This document shows, piece by piece, positions 1 to 34,960 of a DNA stretch of 64,000 bases. Position 1 is the stretch's first letter. Each line of letters starts with the position of its first letter. The notes below the pieces were generated by a model, which saw only the letters and a list, made by a program, of their open reading frames with translations, was not told the origin of the DNA and did not search any database. The position numbers were made by a program, and so were the translations under genes. The stretch is from Shigella phage KNP5, in the sequence record KX452698. The stretch is one strand, 5' to 3'.

Positions 1-104
1 CCCATGGTCCACGCTTCATTAAATTGCTGTTCGCCTGAATTACTAAACCACTCGGCGAAAGCATTTAACACATCTTTAGAACCTTCAATAATTATCTTTG
101 CCAT
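1..104 (-). CDS. hypothetical protein, N-terminal part only (gene continues past window start)
   Basis: ATG at 104-102 overlaps the TAA of the upstream ORF (TAATG); open minus-strand frame to position 1; begins [19 protein letters not shown]. Confidence 0.4.
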   Translation of the reverse strand, partial: MAKIIIEGSKDVLNAFAEWFSNSGEQQFNEAWTM

Positions 105-466
105 TACAAGCTCTCAGTAAAGGTACGAGCGATAACGTCGCGCTGCTGTTCCGGAGTCAGAGAGTTAAAGCGAACTGCATAACCGGATACACGGATGGTC
201 AGCTGCGGATATTTTTCCGGATGCTTAACTGCATCTTCCAGAGTTTCACGACGCAGAACGTTAACGTTCAGGTGTTGACCACCTTCAATTTTAACTGTAG
301 GCTGTGGTTCAATTTCAATTTCACGGGTGTGCAAACCGTAGAAAATTTCTGGGTCTACAAAAGAGTCCTCTTTAAAGGTTTTAGAAACAATAATTCGTGC
401 TTGAATACCATCTTCAAAATAAATAGTACCTTTATGTGTGCCTTCAAGAATTTGATATGCTTTCAT
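104..466 (-). CDS. autonomous glycyl radical cofactor (GrcA/YfiD-like) protein
   Basis: 120 aa; C-terminus carries the glycyl radical motif [25 protein letters not shown] typical of GrcA and the PFL C-terminus; T4 is known to encode a YfiD homologue (Y06I). Confidence 0.75.
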
Positions 467-472
467 ATAACC

Positions 473-802
473 TCAATTAGAAAATAAATTTATCCAAGAC
501 TGTTCTTTAATTAAAAATGGCTCAGAATCATATGCCATTAAACTTTGGGTGATTAGTCCTTTAAAAGGTCCATCAATAAATTCCATGGTAAAATATGGAA
601 TTTTATTCATTAATCTTGCATTAGGAGCAGTACACAAAACTCTGCATCCTTTGAATACACCTTTTTGTAATTTGTATTGCTTAGGATAAAATTCGCTCAA
701 GACGTTGTTATTTGCCAAAATTTCAAAATGATTCACCAATTTATTTTTAATAGTTTTTGGCGAAAAATAAAGATATTCGAAAAGCTGTGTGTCTGTCATC
801 AT
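473..802 (-). CDS. hypothetical protein
   Basis: ORF track 473..853; start trimmed to the ATG at 802-800, which overlaps the upstream TGA (ATGA). Confidence 0.5.
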   Translation of the reverse strand: MMTDTQLFEYLYFSPKTIKNKLVNHFEILANNNVLSEFYPKQYKLQKGVFKGCRVLCTAPNARLMNKIPYFTMEFIDGPFKGLITQSLMAYDSEPFLIKEQSWINLFSN

Positions 803-1386
803 TGCATTCCGATTACGAAAAACTGCGGACGAGTAATACCACCAGTGCAACATTTACTATTGCAACAGTATTGTACAGTTTCAATATGAATATCGTAAAT
901 TTTATCCATATCGGGAGATTTAACCGGCTCATCGATTATATACAAAATCCGCGAAAGCGATAAACCTCTGAACTTGCTGCCTCTATTACCGATAAAACTA
1001 CGGACAGAATCAGTAAATAAACGAAAACGTATATCATCACTAGAATAACGAGAAAATTCTTTTTTAATGTGGCCTGCAGAAATTTTAGCGTAAGCTGAAG
1101 TATTAGAAAGAACAATAACTGTTCCACCGTCATACAGCCAATTAGCAGCAAAGTTAGTCACAGCAGTTGATTTACCGGATTGACGTCCACCATCTAGTCG
1201 AAGTGTGCAATACTGTTTGAGTAAGTCTTCAAATGGTAGGATATAATCGTTTTTACAAATTTCTTCTACTCTAGCATCAGAATGGTATGTAAAAGCATTC
1301 ATCAGGGATAGATAAGGACCAGTTAAAAATGTTCTCATTTTATTCTCTCTAAATTTGGGCCATTCCATGGCGCATGAATTGTCCAT
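799..1386 (-). CDS. P-loop NTPase-like hypothetical protein
   Basis: 195 aa; Walker A-like GGRQSGKST and Walker B-like ILYIIDE; no family recognised. Confidence 0.55.
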   Translation of the reverse strand: MDNSCAMEWPKFRENKMRTFLTGPYLSLMNAFTYHSDARVEEICKNDYILPFEDLLKQYCTLRLDGGRQSGKSTAVTNFAANWLYDGGTVIVLSNTSAYAKISAGHIKKEFSRYSSDDIRFRLFTDSVRSFIGNRGSKFRGLSLSRILYIIDEPVKSPDMDKIYDIHIETVQYCCNSKCCTGGITRPQFFVIGMQ

Positions 1387-1491
1387 TTCTGTATTTACCC
1401 ATTACCGCACTTGGGCTCGACCTTATTACAGGTTGGCGGGAATCCCTCATAGAATCATGAGGTCCAGCTTGTTCCCATATTTCTTATTTGC

Positions 1492-1965
1492 TTATTTGAA
1501 TGATTTGACGTACTGAATAGAGCCTTTGCTATTCACGAAAGCGATTTTACCATTTTTGTTATACATGGTAGCAGTACGCTGATAACCATAAGTTTGTTTA
1601 CCAGATTGATAACCAACTAATGCAAAATTATCTTCACCCATTTTATTCTGCTTCGCGCGGATACGTTCATGACCATGTGCCATAAGAACCTTAGCGTCGC
1701 CAGTTGCAATGGATCTACGAGTTTTTTCATCTTCAACTGTATTAACAAAGTCGTCAAATGAATCAAATTTAGCGTGAGATTTATTATACAGTTTTCCATC
1801 TACTGCATAATTATATCCCTGTACATCCATCTCAACTTCTGTACCATCATCCAATACAGCAGTGATTTTTTGACCTTTTTTAAATTTCAAAAGATCAGTA
1901 AAAGATTCAGCGATAATTTGAGAATTAATAGCTGCTTCAGTGATAAATTCTTGATATGTTTTCAT
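1492..1965 (-). CDS. head internal protein (IP-like) with N-terminal capsid targeting sequence
   Basis: 157 aa; begins MKTYQEFITE, matching the T4 IP capsid-targeting sequence with I-x-E protease sites (ITE, IAE); late promoter just upstream. Confidence 0.7.
   Translation of the reverse strand: MKTYQEFITEAAINSQIIAESFTDLLKFKKGQKITAVLDDGTEVEMDVQGYNYAVDGKLYNKSHAKFDSFDDFVNTVEDEKTRRSIATGDAKVLMAHGHERIRAKQNKMGEDNFALVGYQSGKQTYGYQRTATMYNKNGKIAFVNSKGSIQYVKSFK

Positions 1966-31822: not shown

Positions 31823-34960
<3,138 letters not shown>

What the first reader, a model, noticed from the sequence alone, without database searches (positions are those of the whole stretch)
799..1386. Unassigned small P-loop NTPase among the early genes
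A 195-aa protein with Walker A (GGRQSGKST) and a Walker B-like hhhhDE (ILYIIDE) but no further recognisable family signature sits in an early, accessory region next to the GrcA-like gene and the IP-like gene. It is not thymidine kinase or dNMP kinase. Small stand-alone ATPases in accessory regions are recurrent components of phage anti-defence or defence modules.
Basis: seen in the sequence. Interest (0 to 1): 0.45.

Follow-up and report, generated by a model that had tools for sequence, protein, structure and literature searches.

The report
Terminase-like mini ATPase (T4 Vs.8 orthologue)
The flagged gene is this T4-like phage's copy of T4 early gene vs.8, a stand-alone copy of the ATP-binding core of the DNA-packaging enzyme. 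A 2026 paper already showed that the bacterial immune sensor Avs2 recognises it, so the gene is real but no longer unassigned, and its own job in the phage is still unknown.

Summary
The window is Escherichia phage KNP1, a Tequatrovirus (100% identity).

**What the ORF is**
- ORF 799..1386(-) is real and carries intact Walker A (GGRQSGKST) and Walker B (ILYIIDE) motifs.
- It is the orthologue of T4 early gene vs.8 (about 92% identity over the conserved 179 aa; phrog_1488).
- Translation probably starts at ATG 1338, giving 179 aa rather than 195.
- The stop overlaps the vs.7 start (ATGA).

**What it resembles**
- It is not a nucleoside or nucleotide kinase.
- A profile-profile comparison with T4-type large-terminase ATPase domains gives probability 97%, E 5e-11. 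Walker A (RQxGK[ST]), an RG motif and Walker B-Glu fall in register.
- It lacks the terminase lid subdomain, the nuclease domain and the coupling motif.
- dN/dS of 0.07-0.15 shows purifying selection.

**What the literature says**
- Evans et al. (Nat Commun, Aug 2026; PMC13601566) report T4 vs.8 as a terminase-ATPase-like protein.
- In that paper it is toxic when co-expressed with the immune sensor EcAvs2.
- Its native role remains open; an anti-defence role is speculation.

**Verdict:** already known, an ordinary orthologue.

**Side finding**
- The leader upstream of vs.8 holds a structured element of about 80 nt with a 32-nt near-invariant core.
- The element also occurs in Vequintavirus and in ~46-kb phages that lack vs.8, usually next to tRNA clusters.
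- It has no Rfam match.

The parts
799..1338 (-). vs.8 coding sequence as most likely translated (179 aa plus stop).
   Evidence: ORF. About 92% identity to T4 Vs.8 from MRTFLTG onward. Homologues are 173-181 aa. phrog_1488 E 2.4e-78 over residues 3-179. dN/dS 0.07-0.15.
1165..1191 (-). Walker A / P-loop GGRQSGKST. The arginine-containing RQxGK[ST] form is the one seen in gp17 (SRQLGKT).
   Evidence: D-G-G-R-Q-S-G-K is invariant in 17 homologues. It aligns to the gp17 Walker A in HMM and hhalign comparisons.
964..972 (-). FRG motif just before the Walker B strand. It aligns with VRG of gp17.
   Evidence: R124 and G125 are invariant. The motif is in register with the terminase 'RG' in hhalign.
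928..948 (-). Walker B ILYIIDE, with the catalytic-type glutamate directly after the aspartate.
   Evidence: I134, I135 and E137 are invariant and D136 nearly so. The motif aligns to gp17 MIYIDE. It is strand beta4 of the AF2 model.
473..802 (-). vs.7 orthologue (109 aa, phrog_2049, unknown function). Its start overlaps the vs.8 stop (ATGA), which suggests translational coupling.
   Evidence: vs.7 is found in 921 phage records against 1008 for vs.8. It is absent next to vs.8 in Dhakavirus IME341.
1398..1476 (-). Conserved structured element in the leader upstream of vs.8. Components: P0 hairpin (GGGAA 1476-1472 / TTCCC 1442-1438, enclosing hairpin CCTCAT..ATGAGG); P2 (CCA 1436-1434 / TGG 1401-1399); near-invariant core ACCTGTAATAAGGTCGAGCCCAAGTGCGGTAA (1433-1402), which contains hairpin ACCT/AGGT. 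Whether it belongs functionally to vs.8 is uncertain.
1359..1371 (-). Short hairpin GCCAUGGAAUGGC with GGA in its loop. It lies between the conserved element and the vs.8 ribosome-binding site, is specific to T4-like phages and is conserved across genera.
   Evidence: Alignment A7 and the sequences. It was not tested further.
33128..34960 (+). Gene 17 (large terminase), the paralogue whose ATPase core (about residues 139-275) Vs.8 resembles.
   Evidence: It is the only window ORF other than vs.8 hit by the Vs.8-family HMM (E 3.7e-8 among 226 ORFs).

Best explanation
The gene is the KNP1 orthologue of T4 early gene vs.8. Its product is a stand-alone paralogue of the RecA-like core (subdomain I) of the T4-type large-terminase (gp17) ATPase. 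It has a five-stranded parallel sheet, a terminase-style P-loop (G-R-Q-S-G-K-S), an RG motif and Walker B-Asp-Glu.

Shown here:
- orthology and synteny;
- homology to the terminase ATPase core;
- intact catalytic motifs under purifying selection;
- absence of the lid subdomain, the C-terminal nuclease and the Ser/Thr coupling motif.

Shown by others for T4:
- early RNA and early protein;
- no fitness defect on knock-down in the laboratory;
- toxicity when co-expressed with the terminase sensor EcAvs2, with an AF3 model placing Vs.8 plus ATP in the pocket that binds the terminase ATPase domain.

Inferred: the protein binds (and probably hydrolyses) ATP-Mg but cannot cut or translocate DNA the way terminase does. 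It most likely acts through protein-protein contacts as an ATP-loaded terminase look-alike made minutes before the real terminase. My preferred reading is an accessory, host-dependent counter-defence or takeover function that Avs2 has learned to detect. The identity and fold part carries about 0.95 confidence; the native-role part carries about 0.3.
For: Identity:
- The window is 100% identical to phage KNP1.
- tblastn finds the protein in 1008 phage records, annotated vs.8 in AR1 and CC31.
- The T4 map and alignment agree.
- Synteny nudE-e-(IP/denV)-vs.8-vs.7-vs.6...regB holds in BW-1, CC31 and M12a; IME341 lacks vs.7 and vs.6.

Terminase relationship:
- phrog_2 (terminase large subunit) E 4e-6. 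18 of 36 family members hit it, best E 3.9e-8.
- Pfam Terminase_6N is hit by 15 of 36 members.
- The family HMM hits only vs.8 and gp17 among 226 window ORFs.
- hhalign gives probability 97.2%, E 4.8e-11 over 126 columns, with the motifs in register.
- The AF2 model has pLDDT 80.8.
- Foldseek returns the P74-26 TerL ATPase, the phi29 gp16 N-terminal domain and SF1/SF2 helicase domain 1.

Selection: dN/dS 0.07-0.15.

Expression and fitness: early RNA and early protein (PMC9697503 supplement); 'Not Fit' (PMC11879866 supplement).

Avs2: PMC13601566.

Neighbourhood: Vs.4/Acb2, a cGAMP sponge, lies in the same early cluster.
Against: - No biochemical data exist for ATP binding or hydrolysis by any Vs.8.
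- All terminase hits are below Pfam's gathering score (14.9 against 22 bits). A profile search of PDB sequences found nothing significant. Structural TM-scores are modest (0.45-0.53), so generic ASCE similarity contributes to the signal.
- The only experimental defence link is as a trigger of Avs2, which harms the phage. No defence system is known to be inhibited by Vs.8.
- PADLOC gave only noise.
- Remote family members have lost the Walker A lysine (GH[ST]) and Walker B, so catalysis is not universal in the wider family.
- The CRISPRi guides targeted the annotated start about 120 nt upstream of the likely real one, so 'dispensable' is weakly supported.
Confidence: 0.6

Rival explanations
1. 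Vs.8 is a genuine nucleic-acid-dependent ATPase. It would be a minimal helicase- or translocase-like motor, or a clamp. It would act early on host or phage DNA or RNA, for example in nucleoid disruption, replication or recombination assistance, or mRNA or tRNA metabolism. It might work with Vs.7. Its recognition by Avs2 would be a side effect of shared ancestry with terminase.
For: - The best structural matches include RecA-like domain 1 of SF1/SF2 helicases (SLFN11, RadD, RecD, DEAD-box) as well as terminases.
- AAA_30 and AAA_19 (RecD-like) families appear among weak Pfam hits.
- The catalytic motifs are intact and under selection.
- The gene shows translational coupling to vs.7.
- It sits among DNA and RNA enzymes (denV, regB, nudE).
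Against: - A single RecA-like domain without a second domain or lid cannot work as a monomeric helicase.
- No nucleic-acid-binding domain or basic patch was identified.
- No fitness effect appears in the T4 knock-down screen (with the caveat about guide position).
- The vs.7 model failed (pLDDT 43), so there is no evidence that Vs.7 supplies the missing parts.
- vs.7 is absent in some phages that keep vs.8.
Confidence: 0.25
2. Vs.8 modulates the phage's own packaging machinery. As a terminase ATPase-core look-alike, it would bind gp16, gp17 or the portal, for example to keep them inactive or to titrate a host factor until late infection.
For: It is homologous specifically to T4-type TerL, and the family is restricted to phages with that terminase type.
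Against: - It is expressed early, whereas the packaging proteins are late.
- It lacks the N-terminal roughly 135 residues and the C-terminal domain of gp17, which in established T4 work carry the gp16 and portal contacts (from my own knowledge; not tested here).
- It is dispensable in the screen.
Confidence: 0.07
3. Vs.8 is an evolutionary remnant of a terminase duplication with no present function.
For: The family is small: 50 representatives at E<=1e-3 among 1.84 billion proteins. It has no known phenotype.
Against: - dN/dS is 0.07-0.15.
- The catalytic residues are invariant across genera whose coding sequences are only 51-53% identical at nucleotide level.
- The gene is present in about 1000 sequenced phages at a fixed position.
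- The protein is detected early in infection.
Confidence: 0.03

Closest known systems
Bacteriophage T4 Vs.8 (NP_049732, UniProt P13318, T4p119; phrog_1488)
   Same: It is the orthologue. It shares about 92% amino-acid identity over the conserved 179 residues, the same neighbours (vs.7 downstream with an ATGA overlap, then vs.6/GrcA-like), the same leader sequence and the same motifs.
   Different: In KNP1 an internal-virion-protein gene (DUF7412), rather than denV, lies directly upstream. T4's database entry is 219 aa because it reads the non-coding leader as an N-terminal extension. That frame is closed by a stop in KNP1.
N-terminal ATPase subdomain I of T4-type large terminase gp17 (Pfam Terminase_6N, PF03237)
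   Same: The arginine-containing P-loop RQxGK[ST], the strand/helix order, the RG motif before the Walker B strand, and hhhhDE with the catalytic glutamate all match. hhalign gives probability 97%, E 4.8e-11.
   Different: Vs.8 has about 179 aa against 610 aa. It lacks the N-terminal extension, the adenine-binding YQ motif, the lid subdomain II and the nuclease domain. The TTT/TTS coupling-motif position is occupied by a conserved G-M/V-Q at the C-terminus. Vs.8 scores below the Pfam gathering cut-off.
Ksap1 / Ksap2, non-terminase activators of Avs2 (PMC13601566; PMC11564622)
   Same: These are lineage-restricted small phage proteins of unknown function. They are predicted to sit in the Avs2 terminase pocket, and they trigger Avs2 when co-expressed.
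   Different: According to that paper, Ksap1 and Ksap2 only share general secondary-structure similarity with terminase. Vs.8 is a true sequence homologue with Walker motifs and is predicted to keep the bridging ATP.
Stand-alone packaging-ATPase domains with solved structures (P74-26 TerL ATPase domain 4ZNI/7KS4; phi29 gp16 N-terminal domain 5HD9)
   Same: The ASCE fold class is the same. They appear among the Foldseek hits with probabilities 0.97-1.0.
   Different: TM-scores are only 0.43-0.48 and sequence identity 13-17%. Those domains work as parts of ring motors on a portal.

Membership tests
T4 Vs.8 family (phrog_1488) | Full-length sequence similarity to family members | tested here: met
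   phrog_1488 E 2.4e-78 covering 176 of 177 profile positions. About 92% identity to T4 Vs.8.
T4 Vs.8 family (phrog_1488) | Conserved position in the early cluster between e/denV/IP genes and vs.7-vs.6-...-regB | tested here: met
   vs.8 follows the conserved leader element in every T4-like locus that has enough sequence.
T4 Vs.8 family (phrog_1488) | Activation of EcAvs2 on co-expression (property reported for T4 vs.8) | not testable with these tools
   Reported for T4 vs.8 in PMC13601566. For the KNP1 protein it is only inferred from about 92% identity.
Large terminase subunit (TerL, T4 type) | ASCE ATPase core with Walker A (RQxGK[ST]) and Walker B plus catalytic Glu | tested here: met
Large terminase subunit (TerL, T4 type) | Pfam Terminase_6N at or above the gathering score | tested here: not met
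   14.9 bits against a cut-off of 22. The best family member reaches E 1.4e-4.
Large terminase subunit (TerL, T4 type) | ATPase lid subdomain II and Ser/Thr coupling (C) motif after the fifth strand | tested here: not met
   The protein ends at the fifth strand with FFVIGMQ. No further residues follow.
Large terminase subunit (TerL, T4 type) | C-terminal RNase H-like nuclease domain | tested here: not met
   179 aa in total. The hhalign match stops at gp17 residue ~275. So this is a paralogue of one subdomain and not a terminase, and GenBank labels of 'terminase large subunit' for it are misnomers.
Thymidine kinase / dNMP kinase (P-loop kinases) | Match to kinase families, with a lid and an NMP-binding region | tested here: not met
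   No kinase family appears in Pfam, NCBIfam or PHROG scans at E<=1. Fold matches are to helicase and terminase ASCE domains.
Known anti-phage defence or anti-defence ATPases (PADLOC models) | Significant match to a defence-system component | tested here: not met
   The best hit is PtuA at E 0.005 and 13.9 bits over the P-loop only.
RegB-type endoribonuclease (label carried by several GenBank records) | Similarity to RegB | tested here: not met
   No RegB family hit in any library. The label seems to be propagated annotation error.

The most novel reading that the evidence does not exclude
Vs.8 is a purpose-built molecular mimic of the terminase ATPase domain, made minutes after infection. It would occupy, mis-assemble or pre-empt host sensors that recognise terminase or related ATPase folds (for example Upx, or Avs1/Avs3-type sensors), or another ATP-dependent immune component. 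EcAvs2 would represent a host counter-adaptation that turns the decoy into a trigger. A separate possibility is that the near-invariant structured leader element upstream of vs.8 is a new class of phage RNA. That element is shared with Vequintavirus and ~46-kb phages, where it sits by tRNA clusters, and it may act on a conserved host factor.
Probability: 0.2. Interest if true: 0.7.

Novelty: already known. Interest (0 to 1): 0.3.

Why it matters
For the gene itself, the result removes a false 'orphan'. It is T4 vs.8, a terminase-ATPase paralogue already tied to Avs2 sensing.

Three practical points follow:
- The database start codon of T4 vs.8 is probably wrong.
- The genome-wide CRISPRi guides therefore missed the real ribosome-binding site, so 'dispensable' is not secure.
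- Several GenBank names for this gene ('endoribonuclease', 'terminase large subunit') are errors.

The open question is why about 1000 T4-like phages keep an early, catalytically intact terminase look-alike that can set off a host alarm. A clean deletion makes that question directly testable.

The conserved leader element may be the more original lead. It is a small structured motif with covarying helices and an invariant core, it has spread across unrelated coliphage families, and Rfam does not contain it.

Tried and rejected
- Pfam, NCBIfam and PADLOC scans gave no family at curated thresholds. The 'Conotoxin' hit is an artefact of the Cys-rich stretch CCNSKCC.
- A profile search of PDB sequences gave only insignificant hits (TraD-like coupling protein, FtsY; E about 0.07).
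- Pairwise BLASTP of Vs.8 against gp17 was weak (E 0.07). Only profiles showed the relationship.
- The Vs.7 structure prediction failed (pLDDT 43, three-sequence alignment), so no fold search was run. The word-index homologue search for Vs.7 returned only 8 proteins.
- Literature searches with 'vs.8' plus T4 terms failed or were swamped by 'vs. 8' in clinical papers. The key paper surfaced only through an Avs/terminase query.
- For the leader element:
  - Rfam gave nothing, with sroH at 10 bits and E 2 as noise.
  - ARAGORN found no tRNA.
  - No match in E. coli genomes on either strand.
  - The 10 hits in bacterial genome contigs are chance: about 17 were expected, and none continues into GCGGTAA.
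  - A pattern that freed the P3 3' strand returned only chance hits, so P3 and P4 never vary and carry no covariation evidence.
  - The single-sequence folding energy is no better than that of shuffled sequences (z -0.06).
  - RNAalifold on a MAFFT alignment recovered only P3 and P4.
  - T4 rnaC and rnaD show no clear homology.
  - I also considered, by eye and without testing, a sigma-70, sigma-28 or MotA promoter, an RfaH ops site, a twister ribozyme, and mimics of 5S rRNA, RNase P or tmRNA. None fitted.
- No covariance model was built.

Full report
**Source and observation.** The first 3.5 kb of the window are 100% identical to Escherichia phage KNP1 and 97-99% identical to many Tequatrovirus genomes. 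The ORF at 799..1386 on the minus strand is present. It encodes GGRQSGKST at 1165..1191 and ILYIIDE at 928..948. tblastn finds the protein in 1008 phage records. Records that use T4 gene names call it vs.8, and the downstream gene vs.7.

The T4 map confirms the order denV - vs.8 - vs.7 - vs.6 (GrcA-like) - vs.5 - vs.4 - vs.3 - regB. In KNP1 an internal-virion-protein gene (DUF7412, phrog_3155) sits between denV and vs.8.

**Start codon.** The alignment with T4 is about 92% identical from MRTFLTG onward and unrelated before it. Other homologues begin at the same methionine and are 173-181 aa long. A GAGAG Shine-Dalgarno sequence lies 8 nt upstream of ATG 1338. The T4 entry (219 aa) reads the upstream leader in frame, but that frame is closed by a stop in KNP1 and broken by indels in other genera. 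The protein is therefore most likely 179 aa (799..1338). Its stop overlaps the vs.7 start as ATGA.

**Family and fold.**
- Curated libraries give nothing above threshold.
- PHROGs places the protein in phrog_1488, 'unknown function' (E 3e-78), with a secondary hit to phrog_2, terminase large subunit (E 4e-6).
- Scanned one by one, 18 of 36 family members hit phrog_2 (best E 3.9e-8) and 15 of 36 hit Pfam Terminase_6N.
- A family HMM searched against all 226 window ORFs of at least 60 aa finds only vs.8 itself and gene 17 (E 3.7e-8). The alignment runs over gp17 residues 139-251, from before Walker A to the RG motif.
- A profile-profile comparison with 23 T4-type terminase ATPase domains gives probability 97.2% and E 4.8e-11 over 126 columns. 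GRQSGKS aligns with SRQLGKT, FRG with VRG and IIDE with YIDE.
- The AlphaFold2 model (pLDDT 80.8) is a five-stranded alpha/beta ASCE domain.
- Foldseek returns RecA-like domain 1 of SF1/SF2 helicases, the P74-26 terminase ATPase domain and the phi29 gp16 N-terminal domain, all at modest TM-scores.
- Among viral models, Foldseek returns many uncharacterised 145-175-aa proteins of large phages.

The protein stops after the fifth strand. It therefore has no lid subdomain, no nuclease domain and no Ser/Thr coupling motif, and it is a paralogue of one terminase subdomain rather than a terminase. No kinase family appears anywhere.

**Distribution and selection.**
- An exhaustive HMM search of 1.84 billion representative proteins finds only 50 at E<=1e-3, nearly all 150-185 aa.
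- Relatives in Proteus, Morganella and Providencia T4-like phages lie at a similar record coordinate (about 53-58 kb) to T4 vs.8; their gene neighbourhood was not examined.
- Some remote metagenomic members have G-H-[ST] in place of G-K-[ST] and have lost Walker B.
- Within Tequatrovirus, dN/dS is 0.07-0.15. Between genera the coding sequence is only 51-53% identical at nucleotide level while the motifs stay invariant.
- vs.7 accompanies vs.8 in most genomes (921 against 1008 records) but not all.

**Literature.**
- T4 vs.8 is an early transcript with early protein (PMC9697503 supplement).
- It is 'unknown function, phrog_1488' and 'Not Fit' in the CRISPRi-ART screen (PMC11879866 supplement). 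The guides listed there lie at 64,887-64,937, the annotated start, about 120 nt upstream of the likely real start. The negative result is therefore weak.
- Evans et al. (Nat Commun, 3 Aug 2026, PMC13601566) ran an AlphaFold 3 screen of T4 and PhiC120 proteins against the terminase sensor EcAvs2. [quoted passage not shown]
- The same authors reported its sequence and structural similarity to the T4 terminase ATPase domain, including Walker A and B. They modelled it in the terminase pocket with the bridging ATP (ipTM 0.84).
- They state that its role in infection is unresolved and suggest that such non-terminase activators might be anti-defence proteins.
- Vs.4, a few genes downstream in the same cluster, is the cGAMP sponge Acb2 (PMC10449767).

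My independent analysis thus reproduces a published conclusion, and the finding is already known.

**Mechanism.** The fold and motifs support an ATP-Mg-binding, probably hydrolysing, terminase-core domain. That domain cannot by itself cut or translocate DNA. Its early timing, its accessory location, its lineage restriction and its recognition by Avs2 fit best with action by protein mimicry in the host-phage conflict. This last step is inference, at about 0.3. The rivals are a nucleic-acid-dependent ATPase working with Vs.7, a packaging modulator and a relic. The report sections weigh them.

**Side finding: conserved leader element.** While checking the start codon I aligned the leaders of five genera. 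A 32-nt block, ACCTGTAA(N)AAGGTCGAGC-N5-6-GCGGTAA, is nearly invariant although the downstream proteins are only about 40% identical.

Occurrence:
- blastn finds the block in Vequintavirus phages and in the 44.9-kb phage Ivi.
- Exact-pattern scans of IMG/VR return 38 and then 55 contigs. The 17 loci new in the second scan include about 8 chance matches and 2 doubtful ones.
- In every T4-like locus with enough sequence, vs.8 follows on the same strand within 50-480 nt. In three Jiaodavirus-like loci an internal-protein gene is inserted between them.
- Vequintavirus, the ~46-kb phages and a 75-kb contig carry the element without any vs.8 homologue.
- In 10 of 12 such loci the element lies 220-750 nt from a tRNA gene cluster and in the same orientation.
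- Hits in bacterial genomes are chance.

Evidence for structure:
- The four nucleotides before ACCT pair with those after GGTAA. The junction-proximal pair is formed in 35 of 35 distinct sequences with five pair types: AU 19, UG 6, UA 5, CG 4, GC 1.
- G-U pairs make the structure strand-specific.
- A hairpin (P0) ends at a fixed register just upstream, with unrelated sequences in different lineages: GGGAA/TTCCC, GGGAG/CTCCC, AAAGG/CCTTT, AAAGC/GCTTT, AAAGA/TCTTT, GAGGG/CCCTC, GAATG/CATTC, GAGTG/CACTC, GGAAC/GTTCC and TGAGG/CCTCA. It is found in 16 of 21 distinct variants against 4.1 expected by chance.

Evidence against, or missing:
- P3 and P4 never vary.
- The folding energy of a single sequence is unremarkable.
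- No Rfam family matches.
- I did not build a covariance model or map transcripts.

In the window the element spans about 1398..1476(-). Its function is unknown. It may be a leader of vs.8, a separate small RNA, or a recombination or processing signal.

Noticed in passing
window 1398..1476 (-); also L002 (T4), L003-L008, L019-L058, L063-L066, L068: A structured element of about 80 nt with a near-invariant 32-nt core (ACCTGTAANAAGGTCGAGC-N5-6-GCGGTAA). Its flanking helices P0 and P2 covary. It lies upstream of vs.8 in all T4-like phages examined. It is also present in Vequintavirus, in ~46-kb phages (Ivi-like) and in a 75-kb contig, all of which lack vs.8. In 10 of 12 of those loci it lies 220-750 nt from a tRNA cluster in the same orientation. 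It has no Rfam match, no match in E. coli genomes, and no paper was found that contains the sequence.
   Followed up: partly
window 1359..1371 (-): Hairpin GCCAUGGAAUGGC with GGA in its loop, preceded by AAAUGGACAAU. It is conserved across T4-like genera between the leader element and the vs.8 ribosome-binding site. It resembles a CsrA-type GGA hairpin site, but this was not tested.
   Followed up: no
T4 NC_000866 64253..64912 (L002 5254..5913): The T4 RefSeq vs.8 CDS (219 aa) probably starts about 120 nt too far upstream and reads the conserved non-coding leader as protein. The CRISPRi-ART guides for vs.8 (64,887-64,937) target that region, so the 'Not Fit' call may not reflect a real knock-down of Vs.8.
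   Followed up: partly
proteins P0056, P0058, P0060, P0064, P0065, P0067, P0068 (alignment A3): Remote metagenomic relatives of Vs.8 (150-175 aa) carry G-H-[ST] instead of the Walker A G-K-[ST] and lack the Walker B D-E. This suggests a catalytically dead or re-purposed branch. No close relative was found among isolated phages.
   Followed up: partly
window 817..870 (-), Vs.8 residues ~157-168 of 179: The Cys-rich insert CCNSKCC(T)GG is present in Tequatrovirus-type Vs.8 only. It falls in the one low-confidence segment of the model and causes a spurious conotoxin Pfam hit. A possible metal site or disulfide was not examined.
   Followed up: no
GenBank records (e.g. OR125554, MH051915, PQ181262): vs.8 and vs.7 orthologues are variously annotated 'endoribonuclease', 'endoribonuclease RegB domain-containing protein' or 'terminase large subunit'. 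None of these labels is supported by family scans.
   Followed up: yes
window 1492..1965 (-) versus L025/L028/L035: Internal-virion-protein genes (MKTYKEFI... leader) occupy different sides of the conserved leader element in different T4-like phages. In KNP1 the gene is upstream; in Jiaodavirus-like contigs it lies between the element and vs.8. The element may mark a junction for cassette exchange.
   Followed up: partly
L071, L072 (IMG/VR contigs of 165 kb and 235 kb): A variant with AAGGTCGAGC-N6-GCGGTAA but without the ACCT/AGGT hairpin, followed by a shared conserved tail (GGAAGCGAAGCGGTTACATCC...). It may be a distant relative of the element or a chance match.
   Followed up: no
window 104..466 (-): The vs.6 orthologue is a 120-aa stand-alone glycyl-radical domain (Pfam Gly_radical E 2.6e-18), like the host's GrcA spare part for pyruvate formate-lyase. 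It lies two genes downstream of vs.8.
   Followed up: no
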